Source: an uncultured bacterium (GTDB lineage: Bacteria; Eisenbacteria; RBG-16-71-46; CAIMUX01; WJJG01). From it: 64,000 nt of DNA. The translations under genes were made by a program, and so were the position numbers. The stretch spans positions 6,912 through 70,911 of the forward strand of contig CAZPGB010000014.1 of the NCBI GenBank assembly GCA_964585945.1, written 5' to 3'. Below, in pieces: positions 8,920 to 38,564 of this stretch (position 1 is the stretch's first letter; the number at the start of each line of letters is the position of its first letter). The notes below the pieces were generated by a model that was not told the origin of the DNA, ran no database searches, and worked only from the letters and a program-made list of their open reading frames with translations.

Positions 8920-8950
8920 GGTGCAGTCCTTTCCGTTCGTCGCACCTCGC

Positions 8951-9349
8951 TCAATGCTCGGGGGGAGGCTTCCCGGCCGGGGACGGAAGTCCGGCCAGAA
9001 CCCATTTCCAGGCCTCGTCGGCCTGCTCGAGCGTGAAGTGGCGGGCTTGGGCGCCGGCAAACGGCTGGATGAAACGAGACAATCCGGTCTTCCAGTCTGG
9101 GTGACTCACGATCGCCAGGCGATCCACATCGCGGGAGTGCTTGAATTCGAACTTCAAGTCCTCCCACAGGGCCGCGGCGGACCACCCGGCAAAATCGTGC
9201 AATTCCACCAGAATCCGAATAGCTCCGTGTTGCCGGATCTGCTCCTCGGCCACGGATGCAAAGCGCTCGAGATCCTCCTGCTCCAGTTTGCCGGAGACAT
9301 GGATCTTGAGAATGCGGCCATCGGCCATGGGGCTGGCTTCCAGACTCAT
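8951..9349 (-). CDS. SpoIIAA-like / STAS-fold (DUF3478-type) protein
   Basis: 132 aa. Homologous to the second copy at 55015..55401 (shared G[FW]..LW...RLAI[VI]..W...AQ.R....WV pattern). Confidence 0.65.
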   Translation of the reverse strand: MSLEASPMADGRILKIHVSGKLEQEDLERFASVAEEQIRQHGAIRILVELHDFAGWSAAALWEDLKFEFKHSRDVDRLAIVSHPDWKTGLSRFIQPFAGAQARHFTLEQADEAWKWVLAGLPSPAGKPPPEH

Positions 9350-11651: not shown

Positions 11652-13178
11652 ATGTCAAGGCAGACCAATCACGATCCAAAGATCGGTCGTCTGCTTGCCG
11701 CCATCGCATTGGGCGCCTTGCTGCTGGGCCTCGCGGCAAGCGGACCGGCATTGGCCGAACCGGACATGAGCGATACGAGCATCGCGGATGCGGTTGAAGA
11801 CGAGCTGGCCTACGACCAATCGGTACCGCTCAACGACATCGACGTTCGCGTCACCAAGGGCGTCGTGACATTGACCGGAAGCGTGAACAACCTGTTGGCC
11901 AAGGAACGAGCGGCACGGCTGGCACAAACTGTCAAGGGCGTGCGATCGGTGATCAACCGTATCGACGTCTCGCCCTACTGGGGCCGCATGGACTGGGAGA
12001 TCGAGCGGGACGTCGAGGACGCGATGGTGTTCGACTTGGCTACGGAGTCTTACGAGGTGGAAGCTGAGGTCATCGATCATGTCGCCTACTTGACCGGGAC
12101 GGTCGACTCGTGGCGGGAGAAGATGCTAGCTGAGAAGGTGGTCAAGGGGGTCAGAGGCGTTACGGACGTAACCAACAATCTCACCGTGAGCTATCCGGAG
12201 GAACGGCCCGATTTCGAGATGAAGGAGGAGATCGACAGCGCCCTGCGTTGGGACACACTGGTCGACGACCGATGGATCATCGTCGCGGTGAACAACGGCA
12301 AGGTCACTTTGGACGGACGGGTGGGCAGCGCTGCGGAGCGCCGACAGGCCCGCTACGACGCCTGGGTCTACGGCGTTCACTCCGTGGATACATCTGACCT
12401 CACGGTGGACCCGAATCTGCGGGACGAAGCTCAGCGCGAGAGCAAGTATGTCATCAAGTCGGAAGACGAGGTGAAGGAGGCCGTCGAGGATGCGTTGATC
12501 TATGACCCCCGCGTGCTCTCCTTCGACATCAACGTGGATGTGGTTGGGAATGTGGTGACGCTGCGGGGCGAGGTGGACAACCTCAAGGCGAAGCGCGCTG
12601 CTGCGCAGGTGGCCCGCAACACGATCGGTGTTGCTGCGGTCAAGAACAGGATCAAGGTGCGGCCAGAGACATATCTGGACGAGGACATTGCCAGAAACAT
12701 CCGCAATGCCATTGCCCGTGATCCGTATCTCGAGCGTTTCGAGATCGATGTGAGCGTCATCGATGGGACCGCGTACCTGAGCGGGACCGTCGATTCCTAC
12801 TTCGAAAAGGGTCGGGCCGAGGACGTCGCGGCGCGAGCGGGTGGCGTGACAGCGGTCAGGAACTCCCTGGATGTGGACTACCCCGGTTATTCGATCGCCT
12901 ACGACCCCTTCGTGTTCGACTACTATCCCTACGACTACGACTGGTACGACTATGTCCCGTATGCGACCTTCTACTCGGACGAGGAGATCGAGCGGGAAAT
13001 CGAGGACGAGCTCTGGTGGAGCCCCTTTGTGGACGCCGATGACGTCGAGGTGAGTGTCGAGGACGGGGTGGCAACGCTCACGGGCACGGTGGATAGCTGG
13101 TCCGAGCGATCGGATGCCACCGAGAACGCCTACGAAGGCGGGGCCGTCTGGGTCGAGAACCATCTGATGGTTGAGTAG
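11652..13178 (+). CDS. BON-domain (OsmY-like) periplasmic protein with multiple BON repeats
   Basis: Signal peptide. Repeated ...V.V.GVVTLTG.V....KE.A... units. RBS GGAAAGGAAGGA. Confidence 0.85.
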   Translation: MSRQTNHDPKIGRLLAAIALGALLLGLAASGPALAEPDMSDTSIADAVEDELAYDQSVPLNDIDVRVTKGVVTLTGSVNNLLAKERAARLAQTVKGVRSVINRIDVSPYWGRMDWEIERDVEDAMVFDLATESYEVEAEVIDHVAYLTGTVDSWREKMLAEKVVKGVRGVTDVTNNLTVSYPEERPDFEMKEEIDSALRWDTLVDDRWIIVAVNNGKVTLDGRVGSAAERRQARYDAWVYGVHSVDTSDLTVDPNLRDEAQRESKYVIKSEDEVKEAVEDALIYDPRVLSFDINVDVVGNVVTLRGEVDNLKAKRAAAQVARNTIGVAAVKNRIKVRPETYLDEDIARNIRNAIARDPYLERFEIDVSVIDGTAYLSGTVDSYFEKGRAEDVAARAGGVTAVRNSLDVDYPGYSIAYDPFVFDYYPYDYDWYDYVPYATFYSDEEIEREIEDELWWSPFVDADDVEVSVEDGVATLTGTVDSWSERSDATENAYEGGAVWVENHLMVE

Positions 13179-13322: not shown

Positions 13323-13769
13323 CTAGCGATCGTATGTGCCGATCAGCACGCTGACCGCCAGGACGTGGCCGGAGAGAGCCTCCTGCAGCTCCGTCCGCGA
13401 CCTGGCCGGGGGCAGCCGCAGCTTGGTGTCGAGCGCATAGAGCGTGAAGTGATAGCGGTGCGTTCCGTGGCGTAGTGGCGGCATAGGCCCGGTGTAGCCA
13501 CGATTGCCGAGGCTGTTGACCCCCACGGTGCCGCCGTCGACGTTGCCCGCGTCGAGCGCGAGAATCTCCCGGGGTACGTTGTAGAGCACCCAGTGCACCC
13601 ACGACCCGGCCAGAGGGGCGTCTGGATCCTCGCAGATGAGCGCGTATTCCTGGGTCCCCTCGGGAGGATCCCGCCATGTCAGGGGCGGGGACTGATTGCT
13701 TCCCTCCTGCGTGAAGTCCTTCGGAATGCGCGTACCCGACAGAAAGGCCGGGCTGGTCAACGCGAACAC
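13323..13769 (-). CDS. YbhB/YbcL family (PEBP-like) protein
   Basis: LICEDPDAP...H.RY.F..YALD motif set. Confidence 0.85.
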   Translation of the reverse strand: MFALTSPAFLSGTRIPKDFTQEGSNQSPPLTWRDPPEGTQEYALICEDPDAPLAGSWVHWVLYNVPREILALDAGNVDGGTVGVNSLGNRGYTGPMPPLRHGTHRYHFTLYALDTKLRLPPARSRTELQEALSGHVLAVSVLIGTYDR

Positions 13770-13781
13770 GGCGATCCTCCC

Positions 13782-15164
13782 CTAGCCGCCCGCGGGTGCG
13801 CGGGCAGCCGGCTGAACGTCGGCAGCAACCTGGTCCCGATATGCGGTGAGCGCCCGGCTGAGTCCCACCGAGTAGGGTGGGTCGGCCGGCCCTATGGCCC
13901 GCACGCGGTCCGGCAACCGGCCGATCTCCCGGCCGGCCCGCCGGCGAGCCGCGTTGTGATCGTCGAAGTCCCCCGGCAGGCGACGCCCATCCTTCATGAC
14001 TGCTTGCAGGAGCGGTCGGCCCGGCTGCTGCTCGCCGTCGCGGCCCACGATGTCCTCGACCGCCACGCTGTTGTCTTCGATGCGGAAGACCTGCTTGCGC
14101 CCCGGCAGGATGTCCTTGCCCGAGGACAGCTTCAGTCGACCCCGACCGGCGTAAGAGGTCAGCTTGTAGGCCATATCCAACGCGGGCGCGTCCCGCGAGA
14201 CACCCATCCCCGTGCCCACACCGAGTCCGTCGATGGGCGCGCTCTGGGCCGCGATGTCCGCGATGCTCTCCTCATCGAGGCCGCCGCTGGCGAAGATCTT
14301 CACCCGGTTCAGACCGGCGTCATCCAGGATCCTGCGCGCGCGGAATGCCAAGTCGATGAGGTCGCCGGAGTCCAGACGGATGGCGCGCACCTGAAAACGA
14401 TCGCCCAGCTCTGCGGCCAGCTCCACCACGCGATGCACGCCGTCGAGCGTGTCGTAGGTGTCGACCAGCAGCACCGTATCGGGATAGAGCTTGGCGAAGG
14501 CCCGGAAGGCATCGAGCTCGCTGTCGTGCGCCTGGATGTAGCTATGAGCCATCGTCCCGCTGATGGGAACACCATAGACCGCTCCCGCCAGAACGTTGCT
14601 GGTAGCCGTCAAGCCGGCGACATGGAAGGCCCGCGCGGCCTTCAAGCCCGCGTCGGTACCGTGCATGCGGCGCAATCCGAAATCGACCACCGCGCGGCCC
14701 GCCGCCGCCGTGACCACGCGGGCCGCCTTCGAGGCCAGCACCGTCTGGAAGTGGACCTGGTTCATCACATAGCTCTCGGCGATCTGGGCGGCGGGGAGCG
14801 GCGCAACGACCTCGAGCAAAGGCTCATGGGCGAAGACCGGTGTGCCTTCGGGAACGGCGTACACATCGCCGTCGAAGCGAAAGTCTTCGAGCCACCGAAC
14901 GAACTCCGGCGAGAACTCCTCGCGGTCGGCCAGGAACTCGAGCGATGCGCGGTCGAAGCGGAGATTCTCGAGGTAGCTCAGCGCATCATGGAGACCGCAG
15001 GCCAGCAGGTAGTTTCGGTGCGCGGGCAGGCGGCGCGCAAAGAGACTGAACACGGCTTCGTCGTCGTAGCCCTCGCGCCAGTAGGCCTGCATCATGGTCA
15101 GCTCGTACAGGTCGGTCAGCAGGCCTGTGTTGGTCGCGGAGATATGTGGCCAGGGCTGGGACAT
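13782..15164 (-). CDS. pncB: Nicotinate phosphoribosyltransferase
   Basis: LLTDLYELTMMQAYW N-terminus. Start taken at the internal Met (MSQPW). Confidence 0.85.
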   Translation of the reverse strand: MSQPWPHISATNTGLLTDLYELTMMQAYWREGYDDEAVFSLFARRLPAHRNYLLACGLHDALSYLENLRFDRASLEFLADREEFSPEFVRWLEDFRFDGDVYAVPEGTPVFAHEPLLEVVAPLPAAQIAESYVMNQVHFQTVLASKAARVVTAAAGRAVVDFGLRRMHGTDAGLKAARAFHVAGLTATSNVLAGAVYGVPISGTMAHSYIQAHDSELDAFRAFAKLYPDTVLLVDTYDTLDGVHRVVELAAELGDRFQVRAIRLDSGDLIDLAFRARRILDDAGLNRVKIFASGGLDEESIADIAAQSAPIDGLGVGTGMGVSRDAPALDMAYKLTSYAGRGRLKLSSGKDILPGRKQVFRIEDNSVAVEDIVGRDGEQQPGRPLLQAVMKDGRRLPGDFDDHNAARRRAGREIGRLPDRVRAIGPADPPYSVGLSRALTAYRDQVAADVQPAARAPAGG

Positions 15165-15363
15165 CTGCGTTCCCGGTTGAGGTTCAAGAACTCTACAGGA
15201 GCGGTGCGCCGGGTTTCGAGGCGTGTGGCTCCTCACAACTGTGCTTCCACGATCGACGATGACCCCCGATCGCGCCAGCCGTGCCGTCTAGGAAACCGGC
15301 CTGGGGAATCCCCCCAGGACGAGGTGGTGCGCGTGATTGACGGACGAGGAATCGGCCCCGGCG

Positions 15364-16629
15364 CTAGAAGTAGACCCGGAACGAGAGGTAGGAGACATCC
15401 GGGTACGCCCCGAACTCCGAACGCCAGATCACGGTGTATGCGTTGCCGGCGACCGGCTCGCGTCCGTCCTCGGGGCCCGGGCCGAAGCCCCAGAAAGCGC
15501 CGGCCGAGATATCCGTGTTGTCCGACAGGCTGCGCCGGATCTCAGGTCCGGCAAGCAGGGAGCCGTCGCTGACGTTGAGCAGCACTTGGCCGGCAAGCTC
15601 CGTAAGGGGGTCGATCCGGTGGGATCCGCCGCAGACCAGATAGTGACGCCCCAGAAGGTAGACGGCGCCGTCACGGTAGGCTACCTGGTCCTGCAGGTCC
15701 ACATAGCCACTAGAAGATGCCGCACCGGCGCCATTGAAGTGGTACTCGAAGAAGCCATAGGTTCCGCCGGTCAGACTGTAGTCGGCCCCGGTGCTCAGCC
15801 GCCAGTAGCTGCCGCCGTTCCCCACGTCCGAAGCAGAGAAGGCCCCTGGCCGCACCCAGGCGATCTCGAGCCACGTTCCCGCGCCACCGAGGGATCGGGC
15901 GGCGTCCAGGCCCACGAGGAGGTGCTCACGGAAGTCCATGGCCAGTAAGGCGAGATCGGTGCGCTGCCAGTACGTTCTCATGCGAGCATAGTAGGCGTTG
16001 TTCTCGGTGCGTCCTTCGTGGCCCGCCAGGGCGCCGAGGTCGAGCTCACCCATGAAGCCGAAAGGGATGCGCACCCGCAGGGCGTCCACGCCGCGGCGAT
16101 GCTCCGTGTCCAGGGCGTTGAAGGTGAAGGGGGCGATGACATCCAGGGCGTGCACCCCGCGGGCGCTGCCCCAGCCGATGGCCTGCCGCCCGACGATGAT
16201 GTCACCTGGAGCGGTGCGGATCTCGAGCAGCAATCGATCGAGATTCTGCCGCACCCCCACGGTCTCATCCTCTTTCGGCGCCAGAAGGTCGGCACCGAGA
16301 TCGTCCCAGCGATACGGTCTGCGTAGGGGCGTGTTTCCGCCCCCGGCCGGGTAGCCTGCCGGCGGTTCCCCGATCCAAGGCACGCAGTCGTACGCGGCAG
16401 TGAACATCAGGCGCCGGTTGAGCTGGAGGTTCCCCTCCAACCGAAAGCGCGTCGAGGACAATCCGCTGCGGTTGGAATCATAGGGCCGGCCCTCGGGGGC
16501 CGCGAAGAATGCCGACACGTGCTTGGCCATCCCGGCGACGGACACATCGGCGCCAAGTGCGTCGCAGGCCGGCGTCAGAAGCGTGCCCAACGCCAGGCTC
16601 AAGAGCTTGCTGTGGCCGCGTGCATGCAT
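15364..16629 (-). CDS. Outer-membrane beta-barrel protein (putative exit channel of the adjacent ABC export module)
   Basis: Signal peptide. Alternating amphipathic strands. C-terminal ...SFRVYF (terminal Phe). Confidence 0.55.
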   Translation of the reverse strand: MHARGHSKLLSLALGTLLTPACDALGADVSVAGMAKHVSAFFAAPEGRPYDSNRSGLSSTRFRLEGNLQLNRRLMFTAAYDCVPWIGEPPAGYPAGGGNTPLRRPYRWDDLGADLLAPKEDETVGVRQNLDRLLLEIRTAPGDIIVGRQAIGWGSARGVHALDVIAPFTFNALDTEHRRGVDALRVRIPFGFMGELDLGALAGHEGRTENNAYYARMRTYWQRTDLALLAMDFREHLLVGLDAARSLGGAGTWLEIAWVRPGAFSASDVGNGGSYWRLSTGADYSLTGGTYGFFEYHFNGAGAASSSGYVDLQDQVAYRDGAVYLLGRHYLVCGGSHRIDPLTELAGQVLLNVSDGSLLAGPEIRRSLSDNTDISAGAFWGFGPGPEDGREPVAGNAYTVIWRSEFGAYPDVSYLSFRVYF

Positions 16630-16632
16630 GGG

Positions 16633-17328
16633 TCAGTCGGCCTCGCGGTCCTCGACGATACGGCCGTCGCGCATGATGAGCAAGCGACGCGCGCAGTCCA
16701 TCACCTGCGGATCGTGGGTCGAGAACAGGAAGGTCATCCCGCTGCGCCGATTGAGATCGTGCATCATGTCCAGCAGCGCCTGCCCGGTCTCCGAGTCGAG
16801 ATTGGCGGTGGGCTCGTCGGCCAGAATGAGGTCGGGTCGGGAGACCATGGCGCGCGCGATCGCCACCCGCTGCTGCTGGCCGCCCGAGAGCTGCAGCGGC
16901 TTGCGCTTTTCCATCTTCTCCAACCCCACGGCGGACAGCATGTCCAGAACACGCTCGTGCCGCTCGTCCTTCGGCACCCGCTGGAGCATCATGATGTACT
17001 CGACGTTTTCCTCGACGGTCAGCACCGGAATGAGGTTGTAGGCTTGGAAGATGAAGCCGATGTGGTCCCGTCTGAAGTCCGAGAGCGCGCGACCGCTCAT
17101 CTCGTGGATGGAGCGGCCGGCCAGGCGCACCGTGCCTCGAGAGGGCTGGTCGAGGCCGGAGATGATGTTGAGCAGCGTGGTCTTGCCGGAGCCGGAAGGA
17201 CCGACCACGGCGGTGAATTCCCCCCGCTGGATGCGTAGATCGGCGCCTCTCACCGCGTGCACGGGTACGCCGTCATCCTGATAGGTCTTGTGCACGCCGT
17301 CGGCAAGAACCAGGTCGTCGGTGCTCAT
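16633..17328 (-). CDS. ABC transporter ATP-binding protein (LolD/MacB-type)
   Basis: GPSGSGKTT Walker A, LSGGQQQRVAIARA signature, ILADEPT Walker B. Confidence 0.9.
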   Translation of the reverse strand: MSTDDLVLADGVHKTYQDDGVPVHAVRGADLRIQRGEFTAVVGPSGSGKTTLLNIISGLDQPSRGTVRLAGRSIHEMSGRALSDFRRDHIGFIFQAYNLIPVLTVEENVEYIMMLQRVPKDERHERVLDMLSAVGLEKMEKRKPLQLSGGQQQRVAIARAMVSRPDLILADEPTANLDSETGQALLDMMHDLNRRSGMTFLFSTHDPQVMDCARRLLIMRDGRIVEDREAD

Positions 17329-17338
17329 GGAGCCTCCA

Positions 17339-18565
17339 TCACAAACTGCGCCGAATGGCGTCGGCGGGTTGGATTCGGGCGGCGTGCGCGGCGGGGTAGC
17401 AGCCCACCAGCACCGTCAGGCCGAGAACCCAAAGCGGATAGGTCACGAAGGAACCAGCCTGTAGCTGGGGATGGATGCGCGACTGAAAGGTCACGCCGGC
17501 GAATTCGATGCCTCGGTAGTCAATCCCTACGGATCCGGTCAAGAGCACCAGCGCCGAGCCGAAGAGCGCCCCGATCACGATGCTGACCAGGGCCAGCGAG
17601 GCGGCTTCGAGAGCCAGGAGTTGGAAGAGGCCGGTAGGACGCGTCCCCACCGCCCGCAGGACCCCGAACTCGAACTGACGCTCGTGAAGAGCCATGAAAA
17701 GGGTATTGACGATGGAGAGGGCCACGACGCCGAAGAGGATGATGCCGGTGACATACGTGCTGAAGTCGCTGACGTCGAGGGCGGCCTTCAATTGCGGCAA
17801 CAGCTCAGGCCAGCCGAGGGCCACGTTGCCGTGGCGCGAGTATTCGTCCCAGAAGGGCGCCTCCGAACGGCGGGCGAAGTTACCGGATGCGAAGCGTAAC
17901 GCGATCTGGTGGATGCCCTCGATCTGCAGCATCTCCTTGGCCTGATGAACGGGGATGAACGCCATCGCCCGGTTCAGGGCTCGTTCATGAAAGAAGAAGA
18001 TGCCCGCCACGTGGAAGAGGTCCTGCGAGAGCTCGCCCGACTCGGCCGCCGACACGGTGAGCACGACGCGGTCACCCACCTTCACCTCCAGAAGCTCAGC
18101 GAGCTTCCTCCCGATCAGGACCGCACGACGGTCGTCTTGCTTCAGGTACTCACCCTTCGACATCGCTTCGTCGACCATGGACAAAGGCTTTTCCCGATCC
18201 GGGTCGATGCCCACGATCTCGACCGCGCGCACCTGGGCCGCAGACGTGATGGTGCCCCGCGTGAGCACCCTCGGCGCCGCGTGGGCCACGACCGCTTCTT
18301 CCCGCACGCGCGCGAACACGCGAGCGCCGGCGTGCAGAGTGTCGGCGGGCAGGCGGCTGGTCCGGAAATCGACGTTCTGGATCTGGGCCTCGCCCAAAAA
18401 CGTGGCGGTCGCCGAGCGCACCATGTTCTCCTTCATGCCGACCAAAAGAGCATCGACGAAGATCATGGCCGCCAGGCCCAGACCGATCGCCGCGGCCGCG
18501 ATCAGGGAACGGCGCGCGTTGCGGAACAAGTTCCTCCAGGCCAGCTTGATGAACACGGCGATCAT
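17339..18565 (-). CDS. ABC transporter permease, FtsX-like (LolC/E family)
   Basis: N-terminal TM, large periplasmic domain, C-terminal FtsX 3-TM. The start at the internal ATG overlaps the upstream permease stop (ATGA). Confidence 0.8.
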   Translation of the reverse strand: MIAVFIKLAWRNLFRNARRSLIAAAAIGLGLAAMIFVDALLVGMKENMVRSATATFLGEAQIQNVDFRTSRLPADTLHAGARVFARVREEAVVAHAAPRVLTRGTITSAAQVRAVEIVGIDPDREKPLSMVDEAMSKGEYLKQDDRRAVLIGRKLAELLEVKVGDRVVLTVSAAESGELSQDLFHVAGIFFFHERALNRAMAFIPVHQAKEMLQIEGIHQIALRFASGNFARRSEAPFWDEYSRHGNVALGWPELLPQLKAALDVSDFSTYVTGIILFGVVALSIVNTLFMALHERQFEFGVLRAVGTRPTGLFQLLALEAASLALVSIVIGALFGSALVLLTGSVGIDYRGIEFAGVTFQSRIHPQLQAGSFVTYPLWVLGLTVLVGCYPAAHAARIQPADAIRRSL

Positions 18566-19776
18566 GTCATTCTCATCGCGCGCGCGGGTCGGATGCGGGC
18601 GGCCCGCAGCGCCGGGTAGAGGCTGACAAGGGTGGCCGACAGCACGACGGTCAGTCCGGATAGGTAGAAGCTGCGTGCATTGACCTCTGTGTACATGGTG
18701 TCGAACGTCACACCGCCGTAGGAGAAGGGCTCGGGGAGGGCGATGCCGTGCCGAGCGAGGAGACCGTTGGCGGCCAGGGCCAGCAAGCTGCCCAGCACCA
18801 GGCTGAAGCCCGCCAGGATCTCCACCTCGGCGATGACCTGCCAGAAGATCTGACCCGGGTGCGTGCCGATCGCTTTCAGGGCCCCATACTCCCGGGTGCG
18901 CTCCAGCACCGACATCAGGACCGTGTTGAGCACGCCGATGGCCACGATCAGCATGATCACCAGAATCATGATCCACATGCCCTGCTTGTCGGCTTGCATG
19001 GCCTGGTAGAACGAACGGGCCAGTTCGCGCCAGGGATGGACCTCCAGATCGGCGCCCTCCAAGCGTTGCCGGATTTCGGCCACGATGTCATCCACGTTCT
19101 CCAGGGAAGGCGTGGCCAGCGCGATCTCGTGGACCCGCCCGGGAAGGACCATGAGCTCCTGGGCCGTCGCCAAGGGCAGAAACACGCTCATGCGATCCTG
19201 ATAGCTCTGGTCGCCGTCGATCACCCCGACGATCGGATAGAGATCATTGGCCAGCGACCCGTCCGCCGCTTGCGACAAGAAGACCAGCGTGTCGCCGATC
19301 GAGGCTCGCAGCCGGTCGCGCAGATCGTCTCCCAGCAAGACCGCTCGCTCTCCGGCGGCACGCAGCGGACGTCCCTGCGAAATCTTGCGCTCGATGTGGG
19401 TGAGGGCCTGCTCTTGCTGCGGATCGACGCCGATCAGACGCACCGCCACGCTCTGGCTGCCCACCGAGGACAGTCCCGCGGCATAGAGCCGAGGGGTCCA
19501 GGTGACCTCGCTGGTCAGCGCTTCCAGCGTGTCGCCGAGGGCGGCGACATCTGCGATGGTCTTATAGAGCGTGGGATTGTCCTGGTAGCCTTGCGCGTGG
19601 ATCTGCGCGTGGCCCAGCCAGTTGCGCGTGAAGGTGTCGATCATCCGATTGTAGGTGCCGTCCGACCAACCGATCGAGACCGCCGACAACGCGAAGCCCC
19701 CGAACATCGTCAGCGCCGTCAGGACGCTGCGGCGCTTGCGACGAAGGACGTTGCGGAAGGCGATCTTCAACATCAT
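18562..19776 (-). CDS. ABC transporter permease, FtsX-like (LolC/E family)
   Basis: Same architecture as its neighbour. The start overlaps the LolA-like gene stop. Confidence 0.8.
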   Translation of the reverse strand: MMLKIAFRNVLRRKRRSVLTALTMFGGFALSAVSIGWSDGTYNRMIDTFTRNWLGHAQIHAQGYQDNPTLYKTIADVAALGDTLEALTSEVTWTPRLYAAGLSSVGSQSVAVRLIGVDPQQEQALTHIERKISQGRPLRAAGERAVLLGDDLRDRLRASIGDTLVFLSQAADGSLANDLYPIVGVIDGDQSYQDRMSVFLPLATAQELMVLPGRVHEIALATPSLENVDDIVAEIRQRLEGADLEVHPWRELARSFYQAMQADKQGMWIMILVIMLIVAIGVLNTVLMSVLERTREYGALKAIGTHPGQIFWQVIAEVEILAGFSLVLGSLLALAANGLLARHGIALPEPFSYGGVTFDTMYTEVNARSFYLSGLTVVLSATLVSLYPALRAARIRPARAMRMT

Positions 19777-20549
19777 GGCTCGGGATTGCGTAGCCTTCGT
19801 AGGGTGAACGTATCGGGGGGAATATCGGGGCCGAAGTCCACCGTCTGATACTCGAGCACCGTTCGGCGATCCTCTTTGGTCTGCGGCTCGAGAATCAGGC
19901 GCGCCGGGATGCGGCGCCCGTCGAACGTTTGGGTGTCTTCGAAGCGCATGATGCGCATCACCCGATCGTGCTCGTCGTAGTAGACCTCACGTATCGGCAG
20001 GTGATCTCGGCGTCGCACCTCGAGGCGGACCTTGTTCCAGACAATGGGACGGTCCTTCTTGGGAGTACACCGGATGGCGATCATCGCGGAGTCACGCTCA
20101 ACAATGGCGAAGCGATAGTCTTCGAGAAACGTGAATTCGCTGACCAGATCGTCGTTCTTGAAGTCGGATCCCATCCAGGAGCTCATCATCATCGATGGGG
20201 GCACCTTGATGATGCTGTTGGTTTTGGGAAGGTAGTTCCACATCTCGTCGCCGACGCGCAGCGTGCCCACGTCTCGCTCTTTCGCTGGGGAGGTGATGCG
20301 AATGAGGGTCTTGTCCATTCCCTCCGTCCACACCCGTAGCTCGAGGGTCCGGGTCCAATGCGGATGCTCGACGACCATCTTCAGCTCGGCGTAGCTCGAC
20401 TCACTCCGGTACAGCTCGTCGATGGACTGGACGATCTCGCGGGCGCGCAAGCTGTCGGCGGCGCCGGTCTGCGCGCCCGCGGGAGGGGCGGTCACGCGCA
20501 CCGCGATGATCACCAAAAAGACCCCGACGCAGGCATCGACCACGCGCAT
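19773..20549 (-). CDS. Outer membrane lipoprotein-sorting (LolA-like) family protein
   Basis: Signal peptide followed by a LolA-like beta-barrel-fold family sequence. The start ATG overlaps the stop of the upstream PRTase gene (ATGA). Confidence 0.65.
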   Translation of the reverse strand: MRVVDACVGVFLVIIAVRVTAPPAGAQTGAADSLRAREIVQSIDELYRSESSYAELKMVVEHPHWTRTLELRVWTEGMDKTLIRITSPAKERDVGTLRVGDEMWNYLPKTNSIIKVPPSMMMSSWMGSDFKNDDLVSEFTFLEDYRFAIVERDSAMIAIRCTPKKDRPIVWNKVRLEVRRRDHLPIREVYYDEHDRVMRIMRFEDTQTFDGRRIPARLILEPQTKEDRRTVLEYQTVDFGPDIPPDTFTLRRLRNPEP

Positions 20550-21169
20550 CACGCCGACTCCATCAGCATGCGCACGTCCTGGTCGTCCAGGTCCCGCCAA
20601 TGGTGGTACGCCTCGGCCACCGCCCGGAAGCCGGCCGGCGTGTAAAGCACCACGACCTCATCCGCGTGCTGTCGCATCCGGCGCGCTGCGCGCGGCCCCG
20701 CCACCGGAGTGGCCACGATCACCTTTGCCGCGGCCTCGTTGCGGCAGCACCGGACCGCAGCGATCATGGTCGAGCCCATTGCGATGCCGTCATCCACGAG
20801 CACCACGGTGCGGCCGGCGAGGGAGGGCAGGGGGCGGCCGCCGCGCAGCGCCTCGCGCCGCTCAGCGGCCACGCGCTCCTGGGTCTCGATGATCTGGTCG
20901 AGCGCCGCGCGGGACACGCAGGCCTCCGCTTCGGGGATGAGATAGACGTTGCCGTCCTCGGCGATGGCGCCGAATCCCGCTTCCGGGTTGTCCGGGAAGG
21001 GGAGCTTCCGCGAGATCAGCAGATCGAAGTCGGCCTCCAAGAGGCGGGCGGCCTCGAAACCGACGGGCACGCCCCCGCGCGGGATCGCCAGGATCAGGGG
21101 ATCCTCCGGCTGGTATTGCCTGAGCGCCGCGCCCAGCTTGTTGCCGGCGTCTCTGCGATCGGCGAACAT
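20549..21169 (-). CDS. Phosphoribosyltransferase-domain protein (COG1926-like)
   Basis: MFADRRDAGNKLGAAL N-terminus. VVLVDDGIAMGSTM PRPP-binding motif. Confidence 0.7.
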   Translation of the reverse strand: MFADRRDAGNKLGAALRQYQPEDPLILAIPRGGVPVGFEAARLLEADFDLLISRKLPFPDNPEAGFGAIAEDGNVYLIPEAEACVSRAALDQIIETQERVAAERREALRGGRPLPSLAGRTVVLVDDGIAMGSTMIAAVRCCRNEAAAKVIVATPVAGPRAARRMRQHADEVVVLYTPAGFRAVAEAYHHWRDLDDQDVRMLMESA

Positions 21170-21219
21170 GGGTTCCACGTGACCAAAATGCATATGTGCA
21201 CCTTCTTGGACGCCGCCGT

Positions 21220-21729
21220 TCAGCGCAGCACGCGCAGACAGGCGTCTACGAATGCCGGGATGTCATCGGGCATCCGGCTCGAGATCAGATTGCCGTCACG
21301 GACAACCGGTTCATCGCGGTATTCGGCGCCGGCGTTCTCGAGGTCCTTGCGGATCGACTTCCATCCGGTCACGGTTCTGTCGCGCAGCACATCGGCCGTG
21401 ATCAGCAACTGGGGACCGTGGCAGATCATGAAGACCGGCTTGTCGGCCTGCACGAACTCTTTCACGAAGGAGACCGCTGAGTCAAGAACCCTCAACCGAT
21501 CGGGAGCATACCCTCCCGGAATGAAGAGAGCGTCGAACTCCTTGGGATCGGCGTCGTCCACCTTGCGGTCAAGCACGGCCGAGTCTTGATTGCGCTTGCC
21601 CACGATCTCGATGCCGGCCTCCGGGCCGAGCAGCGTCAGTTCGTGACCCGCCTTGCGAAATTGCTCCGCGGGCTGCGAATACTCCTTGTCCTCGAAGAGA
21701 CGATCGATGAGTACGGCGATCTTGGCCAT
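21220..21729 (-). CDS. DJ-1/PfpI family protein
   Basis: ...FIPGG... and ICHGPQLL nucleophile-elbow Cys motif. Confidence 0.85.
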   Translation of the reverse strand: MAKIAVLIDRLFEDKEYSQPAEQFRKAGHELTLLGPEAGIEIVGKRNQDSAVLDRKVDDADPKEFDALFIPGGYAPDRLRVLDSAVSFVKEFVQADKPVFMICHGPQLLITADVLRDRTVTGWKSIRKDLENAGAEYRDEPVVRDGNLISSRMPDDIPAFVDACLRVLR

Positions 21730-21801
21730 GAGCGACCTCCCTCTGAAATGGCCGTCGGGTGACGGTTCGTTGTTGCCCGCATCGCTCAGTGCGGCGGGCC
21801 T

Positions 21802-22485
21802 CTAAGGCGAGGCGGTCAGGGGCTCGGACACCGTCAGGCGGCTGTTGATCTGGCGCACCCCGGCCGTGTAATGGGCGATTTCGGTAGCTGCGCGCACCGA
21901 GGCCTGCGAAGGGAGCTGTCCCCACAACGTTACCACGCCCTGATCCACCTCGACCTTGACCATGGTGGCCGCGACGAGCGCATTGCGATCGAGCGCCGCG
22001 AGGATATCCTCCGCAATGGCCTGATCGGACGACAGACGGGTGGGGACAATCGTCAGACGGTTGTCGACCTTGCGAACCCCGCCGGCGTACGAGCAGAAGC
22101 GACCGGCGAGATCCTTCTTCCAGTAGCTCGTCACTGAGCCCGAGAGTGTCACGAACCCGTCGCGGACCGAGACCTCGATCTCCTGGTCGCTCAGGCTGGA
22201 GTTGGATGTCAGCAGCGACTCGACCGTGGCCTTGATCTGCTCATCCGTGACCGGGCTGGCGGGGCTACCGGCCTGCACGACGATGCTGTTCTCTACCGTG
22301 TGCACTCCGGGGACATTCCGGGCATCCTCTTCCGCGGCCCCGACGCTCTGGTAGACGGGGACGGTGCCGCTCAGGCGGGCGCGTCCCTGGCGGACCTCGA
22401 CGGTGATTCGGGACGCATCGACCCGATCGTCCCAAACGAGCTGTTCGACGATGGTTCTCTTGATCTGCTCATCCGATAATTGCAC
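21802..22485 (-). CDS. BON-domain protein (three BON repeats)
   Basis: Repeats of ...V.V..G.V.LSG.V... Confidence 0.8.
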   Translation of the reverse strand: MQLSDEQIKRTIVEQLVWDDRVDASRITVEVRQGRARLSGTVPVYQSVGAAEEDARNVPGVHTVENSIVVQAGSPASPVTDEQIKATVESLLTSNSSLSDQEIEVSVRDGFVTLSGSVTSYWKKDLAGRFCSYAGGVRKVDNRLTIVPTRLSSDQAIAEDILAALDRNALVAATMVKVEVDQGVVTLWGQLPSQASVRAATEIAHYTAGVRQINSRLTVSEPLTASP

Positions 22486-22533
22486 GATTCCTCCCTGCGC
22501 ATGCGACGCGCTCGGCGAGCTCGACCGATGCGC

Positions 22534-22929
22534 CTACGAGACCTCGATGCTCTTGGAGCTCTGCCACAGGCCGTGGATATTGCACAGACTTGTGGCGTAG
22601 AGCGTGCCCGGCTTGTCCGTCTTGAACTTGAGCGCCATCTCATGGTGGGTATAGACACCGCTGGTGTCCGGGCCCTTGGCGGACTCGCCGTGGGCATGAA
22701 ACTCGGCGCGCCCGATTTGGTAGGGGAACTTCTCCTTCTCCGGATGGAAGAACACCTGGATCCAGCGGATGTGGTGCGCGGTCTCGTTCGGGTGGGCGAC
22801 TTCCTTTCCCAGCGTGACCGTCACGGGGAACATCGCGCCCTTCTCCACCTTGTCCGGTGCGTCGATGACGGGCACGTGCTTTTCGGTCTTCCAGTCGTCG
22901 CTTTGATAGAGTTTGCTGATGTCGGCCAT
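22534..22929 (-). CDS. Superoxide reductase (1Fe-SOR / neelaredoxin-type desulfoferrodoxin)
   Basis: KHVPVI, HPxxxxHHIRWI, CNIHGLW Fe-ligand motifs. RBS AGGAGGAA. The ORF-track N-terminal extension is not used. Confidence 0.85.
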   Translation of the reverse strand: MADISKLYQSDDWKTEKHVPVIDAPDKVEKGAMFPVTVTLGKEVAHPNETAHHIRWIQVFFHPEKEKFPYQIGRAEFHAHGESAKGPDTSGVYTHHEMALKFKTDKPGTLYATSLCNIHGLWQSSKSIEVS

Positions 22930-23172
22930 CTGAGGTTCCTCCTGTTCGAGCCAAACGTCCTGCCTTCCGCGCGAGCGCGAGAGTTGGTTCGCCAACCAGG
23001 CGGCGGACTTCTCCTGCCTACGCTCTGACGCCCAAAGCTAGCGAGCCCGGCCGCGCCGTCCAACCGGGGAGCCGCCCAACAGGACCCTGGGGGATGCCCC
23101 ACACGCCGAGTCGATTGTTGCGGGAACCACGGATTCCGCTTCCCATACAAATCTCGGGCTCGGTGGGTGGGC

Positions 23173-23218
23173 GGGACCGGACGAGCTTCTCTCGCGAGGA
23201 CAACCCGTTTCCGGTCCC
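23173..23218. promoter_or_regulatory. Long inverted repeat GGGACCGGA-N28-TCCGGTCCC with an internal CTCGCGAG palindrome, between the Hsp20 and SOR genes
   Basis: Read from the sequence. It is about 95 nt downstream of the hsp20 stop and upstream of the SOR promoter region. Confidence 0.35.
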
Positions 23219-23311
23219 GCCCCGTGGCGCTGGGATGGGAGTGGAAGAACCTGGGCGACGTTCATTCGAAGAGCGAGTGTACGCCGACCCGGGTCCGGAG
23301 GAGATGGCTGC

Positions 23312-23752
23312 CTATTTGATTTCGATGCGACTCTGCTCCGTTTCGCGGCTCTTCTCCATCTTCATGCGCAGTACGCCGTCTTCGAGTTTCGCGTCGACTT
23401 GCTGAGGGTCGACGGCGGCGGGAAGGGTCAGCAATCGCTCCACGCGGGCATAGCGACGCTCGTTGAGGTGGCGCGTGCCCTTGGGAGGCTCGGACTCTCT
23501 CTCGGCCATGATGTGCAGCTCGTTGCCATCCAGCCGGACCTCGATCTCGTCCTTCTTGAATCCAGGCATCTCGGCGTCCACATAGACGTTCTTGTCGTCC
23601 TCATTGACGTCGACCGGGTATTCCCCCCGCGGGAGGTCCTCAGGCAACACGGTCCCCCGCCAGGGCTCGAGCATGCGGCTGAACGCGAGCGGAACATAAT
23701 CGAACGGATCCGACCAACGTGACAGAGCTCTACGCCGGGGTGCTGGCAGCAT
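23312..23752 (-). CDS. Hsp20/alpha-crystallin family small heat-shock protein
   Basis: Alpha-crystallin domain (...YVDAEMPGFKKDEIEVRLDGNELHI...G.L.M...). Start at the internal ATG preceded by AAGGAGG. Confidence 0.85.
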   Translation of the reverse strand: MLPAPRRRALSRWSDPFDYVPLAFSRMLEPWRGTVLPEDLPRGEYPVDVNEDDKNVYVDAEMPGFKKDEIEVRLDGNELHIMAERESEPPKGTRHLNERRYARVERLLTLPAAVDPQQVDAKLEDGVLRMKMEKSRETEQSRIEIK

Positions 23753-23912
23753 AGAGACCTCCTTTCCGTGCAAATGCGAGTCGGCAACCCTCAAGACCGC
23801 CCCGGCGCATCTCTCGCATCTCTATTCTCTCTCCGGCCTCATTGTTGCCTCCGGCCTGCAACCGGCTCCATCCGGCCCAGGCTGGTTGCGGCGAGGGAAA
23901 CCGTCCGAGCGG

Positions 23913-23932
23913 TCCCTCGGGGTTCCCCGAGG
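23913..23932. terminator. Hairpin CCCTCGGGG-TT-CCCCGAGGG just after the S2P-protease gene stop
   Basis: 9-bp GC stem. Position consistent with a terminator or insulator before the hsp20 promoter. Confidence 0.4.
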
Positions 23933-23938
23933 GGAGTC

Positions 23939-25096
23939 TCAGGCAGCGAAGTTCCGGGGCAGGTCGTCTTCGCCCTCAAGTTCCAGCTTGACCGACAGGA
24001 ACCGCAGGAGGTCCTTCAGCACCAGGATGCCGTGCAGCTTGCCGCCCTCGGCGACGATGAGGCGGCTGATGTGGTTGCGGCCCATTCTCGCCAGAGCCTT
24101 GGTGGCGTCCGTGTCGGGCGCAATCGTGTTCGCATCCGAACAGGACTGGGCGATCTCACCGACGGTGTGCTGGCTCCATTCGGTGCGGGGCACTTCCTTT
24201 ACGTCCCGCGTGGTGACGCAGCCCACCAGACGATCCTTATCCACGACCGGGTACAGCTTGAAGTGATGGCGGTAGACGTAGTCTTCGACGAATTCGCCGA
24301 CGGACAGCTCGGGAGGAACCGAGACGGGATCGTTGTTCATGAACCGCCGGACCGACTCGCCCTGCAGCGCGCGCCGCACGAGGAGCTGCTGGTAACTCTG
24401 CTGGGCGACCGAGCGGATGAACAGCCCGATGAGAATCCACCAGAGGCCCCCGATCGGATTCAGCAGCAACAGGTTGACGAACCCCAGCGCCACCAGGGCG
24501 ATGCCGAACCCCGATCCGACGCGCGAAGCAGAATGGGTCGCGGCCCGCAGATCACCCCTCTTCTTCCATAGGATTGCCCGCAAAACGCGCCCACCGTCCA
24601 AGGGGTACCCCGGAATCATGTTGAAGACGACGAGCACGCCATTGATGTATCCGATCCATTGCAGCACGGCGTTGACCGTCGCAGGCCATCCCCACGAACC
24701 GCCGAGGGCTGAAAGCGCCAGGAAGAGGCCCATGATAACGACGCTGGCGGCGGGCCCTGCGAGTGCCATGCGCAGCTCCGCCTGAGCGCTGGGAGGCTCG
24801 TCGGTCATTTCCGCCACGCCGCCGAAGAGGAACAGGGTGATGCCTTTCATCGGGAGCCCCGACCGCCGGGCGACGAGAGAATGAGACAACTCGTGGACGA
24901 TGATGGAGAGGAAGAGTCCCACGGCCGCGATCAGGCCCATCACGCCGTACTGCCACCACCGTAGTCCTTCGATCTGCTCGGGGAACACCCCTGCCGCGAG
25001 CGACCAGACCACCAGTCCCAGGATCAACAGCCAGCTCAGATCGATTCTCACGGCGAAGTCGAACATCTTGAAAAGCGTGATTCGCTTGCCGAACAT
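23939..25096 (-). CDS. Site-2 protease (M50) family zinc metalloprotease with a C-terminal CBS domain pair
   Basis: HELSH zinc motif in a TM helix. Multiple TM segments. Tandem CBS domains at the C-terminus. Confidence 0.85.
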   Translation of the reverse strand: MFGKRITLFKMFDFAVRIDLSWLLILGLVVWSLAAGVFPEQIEGLRWWQYGVMGLIAAVGLFLSIIVHELSHSLVARRSGLPMKGITLFLFGGVAEMTDEPPSAQAELRMALAGPAASVVIMGLFLALSALGGSWGWPATVNAVLQWIGYINGVLVVFNMIPGYPLDGGRVLRAILWKKRGDLRAATHSASRVGSGFGIALVALGFVNLLLLNPIGGLWWILIGLFIRSVAQQSYQQLLVRRALQGESVRRFMNNDPVSVPPELSVGEFVEDYVYRHHFKLYPVVDKDRLVGCVTTRDVKEVPRTEWSQHTVGEIAQSCSDANTIAPDTDATKALARMGRNHISRLIVAEGGKLHGILVLKDLLRFLSVKLELEGEDDLPRNFAA

Positions 25097-30611: not shown

Positions 30612-31123
30612 GAGTCGCACACCCCATTCCTGGTAGGCGGCGCGCCGACGAGCGGGCGGGGGGCTCTGAGAGTCGAGCTGCCCCCGTGCGCCCAGAGCGC
30701 GCTGCGGTGAATCGAGTTCGAAAGTCTCATTCACGCTAGGATCTGCGAACGAGGACAGCAACCGGGGTGAGCCGCCCTCACGGCTTGGGGGATCGCCCTA
30801 GGACCGAGGCCCAGCCGACGGACGCCGCTCGTTGGGGCGAAGGACTGGTCGTTTGTCGGCGGCCATGCGTGCAGAGGTCACAGTCGCGGAACCGCGCGCG
30901 CTGCCGCCGGAAGTGGGGGAGCACATGCGAACGGTGTCGGGGAAAGTCCCAATTGACGGCCGCGCCGAACTCTTGCCACGCGGGTCGGTTGTTAATGCTG
31001 TAAGTTCGGTGATGGGTGTTAAGCTCGATGACGATGTGCAAGACCCGAAGAGCTTCCCCTCCAGTTGGGTGGCGGACAACACCTCCCGAACCGAAAACGA
31101 TGCAATTGGAAGGAGGTTGGACG

Positions 31124-32616: not shown

Positions 32617-32623
32617 GGCCGCC

Positions 32624-35003: not shown

Positions 35004-35014
35004 GTTGGGCCGTC

Positions 35015-35284: not shown

Positions 35285-35313
35285 CTGCAAGCCTCCTTGA
35301 GGGTGTTTCCCGC

Positions 35314-35985: not shown

Positions 35986-36026
35986 CTGCGACTCCCACTT
36001 GTGGTTGGGCCGGACCTGGTCCGGCG

Positions 36027-36651: not shown

Positions 36652-38564
<1,913 letters not shown>

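What the first reader, a model, noticed from the sequence alone, without database searches (positions are those of the whole stretch)
15364..21193. LolA-like + two FtsX permeases + ABC ATPase + dedicated outer-membrane barrel, ATGA-coupled to a phosphoribosyltransferase and embedded in a stress-gene cluster
Five co-directional genes form a putative trans-envelope export module: PRTase, LolA-like, FtsX, FtsX, ATPase, outer-membrane beta-barrel. Each junction overlaps by ATGA or sits a few nt apart. Canonical Lol systems have no outer-membrane barrel, and having a PRTase as the translationally coupled first gene is odd. Immediately upstream lie DJ-1/PfpI, a BON protein, superoxide reductase and Hsp20 on the same strand. 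This suggests stress-induced export of a lipid or lipoprotein cargo.
Basis: partly seen in the sequence, partly recalled or inferred. Interest (0 to 1): 0.55.

Follow-up and report, generated by a model that had tools for sequence, protein, structure and literature searches.

The report
Lol-like exporter with its own barrel
Five of the six flagged genes form a conserved, uncharacterised cassette, widespread across many bacterial phyla, that probably carries a lipid-anchored molecule from the inner to the outer membrane; the sixth gene, the phosphoribosyltransferase, is a stress-island neighbour.

Summary
Six co-directional, overlapping or near-abutting genes lie at 15364-21193 on the minus strand. 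They encode a PRTase, a LolA_like protein (PF17131, E 6e-44), two MacB_PCD+FtsX permeases, an ABC ATPase and a 421-aa protein with no Pfam or NCBIfam match.

The five transport genes keep the same order in 63 of 67 informative loci from about ten phyla. A rearranged version occurs in Burkholderiaceae. The PRTase accompanies the cassette in only 1 of 80 loci. It belongs to the surrounding dormancy-type stress island, not to the transporter.

Both permeases are closest to LolF/LolE/LolC among solved structures but score below the NCBIfam Lol cut-offs. The barrel family is a distant, shorter relative of DUF1302.

Best reading: a Lol-like ATP-driven extractor, a periplasmic carrier and a dedicated barrel that receives the cargo. 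Cargo and direction are inferred. The stress link is lineage-specific and co-transcription is untested. I rate it a new variant of a known, poorly understood kind.

The parts
19773..20549 (-). LolA_like periplasmic carrier, 258 aa. It has an N-terminal signal peptide (h-region VGVFLVIIAV, AGA|Q) and no lipobox. First gene of the conserved cassette.
   Evidence: PF17131, E 6.2e-44, 150 bits. PDB sequence hits to 3BUU (E 5e-15), 4Z48, 9TP6 and 3BK5. Orthologues at 48-62% identity are named 'outer membrane lipoprotein-sorting protein' by their sources.
18562..19776 (-). Type VII ABC permease 1 (MacB_PCD periplasmic domain plus FtsX transmembrane domain), 404 aa. ATGA-coupled at both ends.
   Evidence: PF12704 and PF02687. 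TIGR02212 lolCE scores 112 bits, below the 362 cut-off. Nearest solved relatives are LolF, LolE and LolC (E 4e-16 to 5e-12) against MacB at 4e-7.
17339..18565 (-). Type VII ABC permease 2, 408 aa. It is a paralogue of permease 1 (27% identity), which implies a LolC/LolE-style heterodimer.
   Evidence: PF12704 and PF02687. TIGR02212 scores 122 bits, below cut-off. LolF E 7e-18 and LolE E 2e-16. Paralogy.
16633..17328 (-). Stand-alone ABC ATPase, LolD-like, 231 aa.
   Evidence: PF00005, E 4e-38. Best NCBIfam model is TIGR02211 LolD at 222 bits, below the 307.75 cut-off. 62-72% identical in related loci.
15364..16629 (-). Dedicated outer-membrane beta-barrel, 421 aa. It has a signal peptide, about 18-20 amphipathic strands, a conserved charged lumen, a highly conserved internal loop (residues 150-180) and the C-terminal signal ...FRVYF. 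The family has no Pfam or NCBIfam model and is distantly related to DUF1302.
20549..21193 (-). Type I phosphoribosyltransferase-like protein, 214 aa. It is translationally coupled to the cassette here but is not a conserved component. It is part of the stress island.
   Evidence: PF00156. T. thermophilus TT1426 (1WD5), E 2.8e-35. Present next to the cassette only in L053 among 80 loci.
21220..25096 (-). Upstream co-directional stress genes: DJ-1/PfpI (21220-21729), BON x3 (21802-22485), superoxide reductase (22534-22995), Hsp20 (23312-23794) and M50 protease with CBS domains (23939-25096). This is context, not part of the cassette.
   Evidence: Pfam. Gaps of 26, 72, 48, 316 and 144 nt from the coordinates.
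13323..15236 (-). Downstream co-directional genes: nicotinate phosphoribosyltransferase (13782-15236) and a PEBP-family protein (13323-13769). Context only. A spacer of 127 nt or more follows the barrel gene.
   Evidence: NF006696, 620 bits. PF01161. The spacer fold is not more stable than shuffled sequence.

Best explanation
Genes 19773-20549 through 15364-16629 encode a self-contained, Lol-like trans-envelope transport module.

Proposed mechanism:
1. Two paralogous LolC/LolE-like type VII ABC permeases and a LolD-like ATPase form the inner-membrane engine.
2. ATP hydrolysis in the cytoplasm moves the periplasmic MacB_PCD domains. This pulls a lipid-anchored or amphipathic cargo out of the outer leaflet of the inner membrane.
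3. The cargo passes to the soluble LolA_like protein, which shields the hydrophobic part across the periplasm.
4. The carrier delivers it to the dedicated outer-membrane barrel.
5. The barrel's polar, highly conserved lumen and internal loop accept the hydrophilic part. The barrel inserts or translocates the cargo at the outer membrane.

So the barrel takes the place that LolB has in Lol and LptD has in Lpt.

The PRTase is not a component. It is a gene of the surrounding dormancy-type stress island. In this lineage the module has been captured by that island and is probably co-expressed with it.

Shown here: the domain identities, the barrel fold, and conservation of the five genes as a unit.
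Inferred: the heterodimer, the direction of transport, the hand-off steps and the nature of the cargo.
For: -
- Among all PDB sequences, both permeases are closest to LolF/LolE/LolC and much further from MacB.
- The carrier is PF17131 and matches LolA-superfamily structures 3BUU and 4Z48.
- Its strands alternate. The outward face is hydrophobic. About 20 charged residues conserved at 90% or more face inward. The loop at 150-180 is the most conserved segment.
- Gene order LolA_like-FtsX-FtsX-ATPase-barrel is kept in 63 of 67 loci. These come from Aminicenantes/Acidobacteriota, KSB1, Calditrichota, Ignavibacteria, Zixibacteria, Poribacteria, Latescibacteria, Gemmatimonadota, Chrysiogenales and others.
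- The same four protein types recur in a different order in Burkholderiaceae, with a fused double permease. hhalign of the barrel gives probability 99.9 and E 9.5e-32.
- The couplings (ATGA, ATGA, 10 nt, 3 nt) indicate one translational unit.
- No membrane-fusion protein, TolC or LolB is encoded in the cassette.
Against: - There is no experimental datum for any member of this cassette.
- No physical contact between carrier and barrel, or carrier and permease, was modelled.
- The LolC 'hook' region that docks LolA is 5-6 residues shorter in both permeases, so Lol-style docking is unproven.
- A charged barrel lumen is not what a purely hydrophobic cargo needs.
- The barrel fold class (Occ, maltoporin, MOMP) consists mostly of uptake channels.
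- A TetR regulator lies upstream in 14 of 65 loci. That fits small-molecule efflux as well as it fits lipid export.
- The barrel model has low-confidence loops (pLDDT below 50 at 91-103 and 302-326).
Confidence: 0.6

Rival explanations
1. The architecture is the same, but the cargo is a toxic hydrophobic small molecule. This would be an inducible detoxification or efflux pump. The LolA_like protein replaces the MacA-type adaptor as a shuttle, and the barrel replaces TolC as the exit channel.
For: A TetR-family repressor lies directly upstream on the same strand in 14 of 65 loci. Related LolA_like cassettes driven by MMPL or RND engines are linked to monoterpene tolerance (AmeABCD, PMC6394551). 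Others are TetR-linked operons induced 13- to 136-fold in P. gingivalis under iron limitation (PMC10434189).
Against: The permeases are nearer to LolE/LolF than to MacB. The strongly conserved charged lumen and loop argue for one specific conserved substrate rather than varied xenobiotics. Most loci have no TetR.
Confidence: 0.2
2. It is the organism's housekeeping lipoprotein (Lol) pathway. In phyla without LolB, the barrel would be the general outer-membrane lipoprotein receptor.
For: LolCE and LolD are the best-scoring NCBIfam models and the closest solved structures. From memory, the phyla that carry the cassette have no described LolB.
Against: Scores are far below the equivalog cut-offs: 112 and 122 against 362, and 222 against 308. 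The carrier is PF17131, not LolA PF03548. The cassette sits in islands, next to TetR, or on plasmids and integrase-flanked elements. One MAG (CAZEDM01) has two copies (L025 and L032). L031 and L036 carry a second, divergent cassette.
Confidence: 0.07
3. It is an uptake route. The barrel admits a hydrophobic or amphipathic nutrient, LolA_like carries it inward, and the ABC complex inserts it into the inner membrane.
For: The best structural matches (Occ, maltoporin, chitoporin, MOMP) are uptake channels. DUF1302/DUF1329 mutants in Pseudomonas have fitness defects on fatty esters and Tween 20. A porin next to an MMPL-LolA-like fusion is induced on C28 alkane in T. oleivorans (PMC6304351).
Against: From established knowledge, no FtsX/MacB-type ABC system is known to import. 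There is no substrate-binding protein of importer type. AlgE and Wzi, which act in polysaccharide export and capsule assembly, match almost as well as the uptake channels.
Confidence: 0.07
4. It is a signalling or activation device, as with FtsEX. The ABC complex would mechanically switch the LolA_like protein, which then regulates an envelope enzyme or the barrel. Nothing is transported.
For: FtsEX-type complexes activate periplasmic hydrolases (established knowledge). The LolA-like protein GerS is an allosteric activator of an amidase (title and abstract listed).
Against: No hydrolase or other enzyme is conserved next to the cassette. The permeases are Lol-type rather than FtsX-type. The NCBIfam FtsX model gives only E 0.0023.
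Confidence: 0.04

Closest known systems
LolCDE-LolA-LolB lipoprotein sorting pathway (E. coli)
   Same: Two paralogous FtsX-type permeases with MacB_PCD domains, a separate ATPase and a soluble LolA-superfamily carrier. LolF, LolE and LolC are the closest solved relatives. LolCE and LolD are the best NCBIfam models.
   Different: All scores are below the equivalog cut-offs. The carrier belongs to PF17131, not the LolA family. The hook region is shortened. The outer-membrane partner is an integral beta-barrel of about 18 strands instead of the lipoprotein LolB. All five genes sit in one cassette that is accessory, island- or plasmid-borne, and sometimes TetR-linked.
DUF1302 barrel + DUF1329 LolA-like protein with an RND/MMPL transporter (AmeABCD of Castellaniella defragrans; PP_0765/PP_0766 of P. 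putida)
   Same: A LolA-superfamily periplasmic protein is paired with an uncharacterised outer-membrane barrel and an energised inner-membrane transporter. The same PDB relatives (3BUU, 4Z48, 3BK5) are cited for AmeB and hit here. The barrel's conserved GRQ-x-I-A-W-G motif and loop region matches the DUF1302 profile at borderline level in the Burkholderiaceae relatives (20-27 bits, cut-off 23.2).
   Different: The inner-membrane engine is a type VII ABC transporter, not RND. No BNR protein is present. The barrel is about 380-420 aa, whereas the DUF1302 profile is 541 positions long and AmeA is 605 aa. The window protein itself gives no DUF1302 hit. The function of the DUF1302/DUF1329 pair is itself unresolved.
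Borrelia BBJ23-BBJ29 cluster (predicted export system, PMC13078400)
   Same: [quoted passage not shown] It was proposed to extract a non-polar ligand and deliver it to the outer membrane.
   Different: There the barrel is an Omp85-family protein, the permease is predicted to be a homodimer, and extra chaperone-like genes are present. It is restricted to Borrelia. Here the barrel is DUF1302-like with a porin-type fold, the permeases are a heterodimer, and the cassette spans many phyla.
MacAB-TolC tripartite efflux pump
   Same: Same ABC superfamily (MacB_PCD plus FtsX). The substrate is taken from the periplasmic side.
   Different: The cassette has no membrane-fusion protein and no TolC-family duct. 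The ATPase is not fused to the permease. MacB is a much weaker match than LolE or LolF.
Lpt lipopolysaccharide pathway (LptB2FG-LptC/A-LptDE). A functional analogy only, from established knowledge.
   Same: The logic is shared: an ABC extractor in the inner membrane, a periplasmic carrier for acyl chains, and an outer-membrane barrel whose hydrophilic lumen takes the polar head.
   Different: No sequence or fold relationship was found or tested. Lpt uses a continuous beta-jellyroll bridge and a 26-stranded barrel with a lipoprotein plug.

Membership tests
LolCDE (lipoprotein-releasing ABC transporter) | Permeases reach the NCBIfam equivalog score for LolC/LolE (TIGR02212, cut-off 362.45) | tested here: not met
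   112.2 and 122.4 bits
LolCDE (lipoprotein-releasing ABC transporter) | ATPase reaches the LolD equivalog score (TIGR02211, cut-off 307.75) | tested here: not met
   222.4 bits. It is the best model but below cut-off, and close to DarD, DevA, FtsE and MacB.
LolCDE (lipoprotein-releasing ABC transporter) | Two paralogous four-helix FtsX-type permeases with large periplasmic domains, plus a separate ATPase | tested here: met
   PF12704 and PF02687 in both permeases. They are 27% identical to each other.
LolCDE (lipoprotein-releasing ABC transporter) | Hook hairpin in the periplasmic domain that docks LolA (known for E. coli LolC; recalled from memory) | tested here: inconclusive
   The alignment with E. 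coli LolC and LolE shows a 5-6 residue deletion at the hook region in both permeases. No structure was compared.
LolA / LolB | Carrier belongs to the LolA family proper (PF03548), and an outer-membrane lipoprotein receptor LolB is present | tested here: not met
   Only PF17131 is matched. No lipobox is present. No LolB-like gene is in the cassette, and a barrel takes that position.
LolA_like / TP_0789-like (PF17131) | Score above the Pfam gathering threshold (30 bits) | tested here: met
   150.3 bits, E 6.2e-44, covering profile positions 2-183 of 184
Type VII (MacB/FtsX) ABC transporters | MacB_PCD periplasmic core domain followed by the FtsX transmembrane domain | tested here: met
   Both domains are above gathering score in both permeases
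MacAB-TolC tripartite pump | Membrane-fusion (HlyD-type) adaptor and TolC-family duct encoded with, or recruited by, the pump | tested here: not met
   All five cassette genes are assigned and none is an adaptor or TolC. None is conserved in the flanks of 65 loci. Recruitment of an unlinked TolC cannot be excluded.
Outer-membrane beta-barrel proteins | Signal peptide, closed antiparallel barrel with a hydrophobic outside, and a C-terminal aromatic beta-signal | tested here: met
DUF1302 (PF06980) | Score above the Pfam gathering threshold (23.2 bits) | tested here: inconclusive
   The window protein gives no hit. Of 50 family members, 2 hit at E 0.046. Burkholderiaceae relatives score 19.8-27.4 bits over the motif region only. 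This indicates a distant relative, not a member.
DosR/lxa-type dormancy or hypoxia island (context of the cassette) | Co-localised Hsp20, BON, M50-CBS protease, PRTase, NAPRTase, P-type ATPase, class II RNR and trehalose-phosphatase/GH65 genes | tested here: met
   All are present in the window. The M. tuberculosis counterparts Rv0571c, Rv1997, Rv2006 and Rv2625c are listed as DosR-related in PMC7753917. A regulator and actual induction were not tested.

The most novel reading that the evidence does not exclude
The cassette would be a third, previously unrecognised kind of lipid-anchor export route across the Gram-negative envelope, alongside Lol and Lpt. A Lol-type extractor and a LolA_like carrier would feed a dedicated DUF1302-related barrel that acts as the outer-membrane insertase or translocon. 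The cargo would be a specific surface lipoprotein or glycolipid. This would be one answer to how bacteria without LolB place lipid-anchored molecules in or on the outer membrane. In this lineage the route would be deployed as part of a dormancy or desiccation programme that remodels the outer membrane. The LolA-like-plus-barrel pair would then be an ancient module that plugs into interchangeable inner-membrane engines (ABC here, RND/MMPL elsewhere).
Probability: 0.3. Interest if true: 0.8.

Novelty: new variant of a known kind. Interest (0 to 1): 0.58.

Why it matters
How lipid-anchored molecules reach and cross the outer membrane outside the Proteobacteria is an open question. LolB is absent from most phyla.

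This cassette gives a concrete candidate defined by five genes, with a barrel in the LolB position. It is conserved across about ten mostly uncultured phyla. It also exists in culturable Ralstonia and Burkholderia, where it can be deleted and its carrier's ligand identified.

It ties the long-unexplained DUF1302/DUF1329 pair to the Lol world. That suggests a general design: a carrier and a barrel, with an interchangeable engine.

The barrel family has at least 4035 clusters at 50% identity and has no Pfam or NCBIfam model. Defining one would improve annotation of hundreds of genomes.

Tried and rejected
- **PRTase as the first gene of the system: rejected.** It is absent from 79 of 80 related loci.
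- **Anti-phage defence: rejected.** PADLOC gives only generic P-loop and LolE-TM hits.
- **Terminator or promoter boundaries: nothing usable.** No sigma-70-like sites were found. Terminator-like sites occur at chance level (7 found, 5.6 expected). The spacer after the barrel gene folds no better than shuffled sequence (z = 1.1).
- **RNA elements: none.** No Rfam family and no tRNA in the window.
- **The B. cenocepacia low-oxygen (lxa) locus: left as an untested lead.**
  - BCAM0302-0305 are annotated as two ABC proteins, a transport protein and an outer-membrane transport protein. They are induced up to 80-fold at low oxygen (PMC3721108).
  - I could not obtain their sequences.
  - The B. contaminans homologue I did locate sits in an integrase-flanked heavy-metal island, not in lxa.
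  - The 'lipoprotein-sorting protein' in PMC6127331 is BCAL3149, outside lxa.
- **Literature:** searches for 'LolA-like' with FtsX, an ABC transporter and the outer membrane found no paper. 'TP0789' gave only proteome listings.
- **afdb50 fold search:** unavailable.
- **Sequence search of the barrel profile against the PDB:** nothing significant.


Full report
**What is in the sequence**

Six minus-strand ORFs fill 15364-21193. Read 5' to 3' on that strand they are:
- PRTase, 20549-21193.
- LolA_like, 19773-20549.
- Permease 1, 18562-19776.
- Permease 2, 17339-18565.
- ATPase, 16633-17328.
- A 421-aa protein, 15364-16629.

The junctions are TGATG (or GTGA if the in-frame GTG is the start, with a GGAG 8 nt upstream), ATGA, ATGA, a 10-nt spacer with GGAGG, and a 3-nt spacer.

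Pfam assigns the following:
- PF00156 to the PRTase.
- PF17131 LolA_like to the 258-aa protein (E 6e-44).
- MacB_PCD plus FtsX to both permeases.
- ABC_tran to the ATPase.
- Nothing to the 421-aa protein.

NCBIfam agrees. LolCE and LolD are the best models, but all score well below their equivalog cut-offs.

**The 421-aa protein is an outer-membrane barrel**

It has more than 450 homologues at 40-48% identity. All are 'hypothetical' and none has a Pfam domain.

From memory, these are all 18-stranded outer-membrane barrels.

The strands show the expected alternation. One face is hydrophobic. The other carries about 20 charged residues conserved at 90% or more, including K36, R61, R63, R132, D143, R185, R187, E195, D197, R216, D242, E255, R277, D283, E295 and H297.

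The most conserved segment is the non-strand stretch 150-180 (AIAWGSARVINPTDVIAPFTFNELDTEERRG; mean conservation 0.83, against 0.67 for strands). By topology it lies where porins place their constriction loop. That last point is inference.

The C-terminus ...SFRVYF is conserved in the family (F417, R418 and Y420 invariant, F421 at 90% or more). It looks like a BAM beta-signal.

An exhaustive profile search finds 4035 cluster representatives at E <= 1e-3 and 731 at E <= 1e-30. This is a large family with no curated model.

**The five transport genes are one conserved unit; the PRTase is not part of it**

A scan of one genome per species returned 346 confirmed loci, and 80 were kept.

tblastn with all the window proteins shows the order LolA_like-FtsX1-FtsX2-ATPase-barrel in 63 of the 67 loci that have at least 4.4 kb upstream. 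FtsX1 and FtsX2 orthology is kept: 47-58% identity to the cognate against 24-33% to the paralogue.

The loci come from Aminicenantes/Acidobacteriota, KSB1, Calditrichota, Ignavibacteria, Zixibacteria, Poribacteria, Latescibacteria, Gemmatimonadota, Chrysiogenales, Omnitrophota and others.

The PRTase is adjacent only in L053.

Clustering all flanking ORFs finds a single recurrent neighbour. It is a TetR regulator upstream on the same strand in 14 of 65 loci.

One MAG carries two copies (L025 and L032). L031 and L036 have a second, divergent cassette in the order ATPase-FtsX-FtsX-LolA_like.

**A rearranged version exists in culturable Betaproteobacteria**

tblastn against plasmids found Ralstonia and Burkholderia records with this order:
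- LolA_like (PF17131, 192 bits).
- ATPase.
- One 830-aa fused MacB_PCD-FtsX-MacB_PCD-FtsX permease.
- A 381-aa 'hypothetical protein'.
- An ABC1/UbiB kinase.

hhalign of the 381-aa protein against the barrel alignment gives probability 99.9 and E 9.5e-32 over 356 columns. The GRQ-x-I-A-W-G and EER-x-GVDA motifs are shared.

Several of these relatives reach borderline scores on Pfam DUF1302 (20-27 bits; cut-off 23.2). The match is confined to that motif region. So the barrel family is a distant, shorter relative of DUF1302.

The LolA_like protein hits the same PDB entries (3BUU, 4Z48, 3BK5) that the literature cites for the DUF1329 partner of DUF1302 (PMC6394551).

**What it most likely does**

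Among all solved structures, both permeases are closest in sequence to LolF, LolE and LolC (E 1e-18 to 1e-10). MacB is far weaker, at 4e-7 or not found.

The combination is therefore:
- A LolC/E-like heterodimer.
- A LolD-like ATPase.
- A soluble signal-peptide-bearing LolA-superfamily protein without a lipobox.
- A dedicated barrel.
- No adaptor, no TolC and no LolB.

I read this as an ATP-driven extraction of a lipid-anchored or amphipathic cargo from the inner membrane, carriage across the periplasm, and delivery to the barrel. The conserved, charged barrel interior suggests the cargo has a defined polar part (a protein, peptide or glycan head) rather than being a bare hydrocarbon. This is the logic of Lol and Lpt.

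The direction, the heterodimer and the hand-offs are inferred. They rest on the established behaviour of FtsX/MacB-type transporters, not on tests made here. The LolC hook region is 5-6 residues shorter in both permeases, so Lol-style docking is not shown.

Rival readings, each kept at low weight:
- TetR-controlled small-molecule efflux.
- A housekeeping Lol pathway.
- Uptake.
- An FtsEX-like activation device.

**The stress context**

The window is largely one stress island.
- An M50 protease with CBS domains.
- GH65 plus HAD/trehalose-phosphatase genes.
- A P-type cation ATPase.
- A baeRF protein.
- UPF0182.
- A six-BON protein.
- PEBP.
- NAPRTase.
- Class II ribonucleotide reductase.
- PolX and LigA.
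- A second ATP synthase operon.

This gene content matches what is listed for the M. tuberculosis DosR regulon. Rv0571c is a PRTase, Rv1997 is ctpF, Rv2006 is otsB1 and Rv2625c is a zinc protease (PMC7753917). It also resembles the Burkholderia lxa locus, which has Hsp20, BON, USP, class II RNR and a cation ATPase (PMC3721108).

The PRTase (TT1426-like) belongs to this set.

The three nearest relatives of the window's cassette also embed it among such genes:
- L053: P-type ATPase, PRTase, baeRF, USP, HAD-T6PP and GH65.
- L084: PolX and LigA upstream; Cu/Zn SOD, HtrA and an AP endonuclease downstream.
- L085: an OtsA-OtsB fusion, UPF0182 and a P-type ATPase.

Among the other loci only a few have even one island gene, for example M50-CBS in L003 and L039.

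The stress association is therefore real but lineage-specific. Expression was not tested.

**Comparison with what is known, and novelty**

I found no paper describing this cassette. The closest published ideas are:
- The predicted Borrelia BBJ23-29 cluster: a MacB-like ABC, a LolA-like protein and an Omp85 barrel (PMC13078400).
- The DUF1302/DUF1329/RND modules (AmeABCD; the Pseudomonas co-fitness data).
- TetR-MMPL-LolA_like operons in P. gingivalis.
- An MMPL-LolA-like fusion next to an unannotated porin in T. oleivorans.

None of these has a demonstrated mechanism.

The present cassette combines a Lol-type ABC engine with a DUF1302-like barrel. It is far more widespread than the Borrelia case. 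I class it as a new variant of a known, poorly understood kind, of moderate to good interest. It is not a member of LolCDE, LolA/LolB, MacAB-TolC or DUF1302 by their own criteria.

Noticed in passing
window 997-45000 (both strands): Most of the window is one large stress or dormancy-type island. It holds a ctpF-like P-type ATPase (997-3813), baeRF (4175-5338), UPF0182 (6067-9060), APS kinase, APH, a six-BON protein (11652-13178), M50-CBS, GH65 (26572-29034), HAD+trehalose-phosphatase (29016-30761), class II RNR (38925-40880), PolX (40900-42615) and LigA (42702-44735). The gene content parallels the mycobacterial DosR regulon and the Burkholderia lxa locus.
   Followed up: partly
window 31741-38522, minus strand: A complete extra F-type ATP synthase operon in the order beta ... 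a, c, b, alpha, gamma. From memory this is the order typical of N-ATPases (Na+-type). It sits inside the stress island.
   Followed up: partly
window 57842-60925, plus strand: A 1027-aa protein that combines PD40/DPPIV-type beta-propeller repeats with a C-terminal Omp85 domain. This is an unusual fusion, and it confirms the organism has an outer membrane.
   Followed up: no
L088 15694-22589 (Ralstonia pickettii plasmid pRp12D0); also L087 and L089: The rearranged cassette (LolA_like, ATPase, fused double permease, barrel) is followed by an ABC1/UbiB-family kinase. A UbiB gene also lies directly upstream of the standard cassette in L085. UbiB kinases are linked to quinone and lipid handling (from memory), so this may be a hint about the cargo.
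   Followed up: partly
L031 8914-12920 and L036 11734-15739: In Chrysiogenales a second, divergent cassette (ATPase-FtsX-FtsX-LolA_like, 21-22% identity for the carrier) lies about 2.6 kb downstream of the barrel gene. It has no second barrel detectable by tblastn.
   Followed up: no
L074 3772-6564: A 2.8-kb insertion separates permease 2 from the ATPase in one Poribacteria genome. Its content was not examined.
   Followed up: no
L045, L047, L050, L051: These are the four loci where the full gene order was not recovered. L047 shows only ATPase plus barrel despite 8 kb of upstream flank. The cause could be masked sequence, divergence or a true variant.
   Followed up: no
window 20524-20539, minus strand: A weak terminator-like hairpin followed by GGTCTTTTTG lies 10 nt into the LolA_like coding region, just after the PRTase stop codon. 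The scan as a whole was at chance level, so it is probably meaningless.
   Followed up: partly
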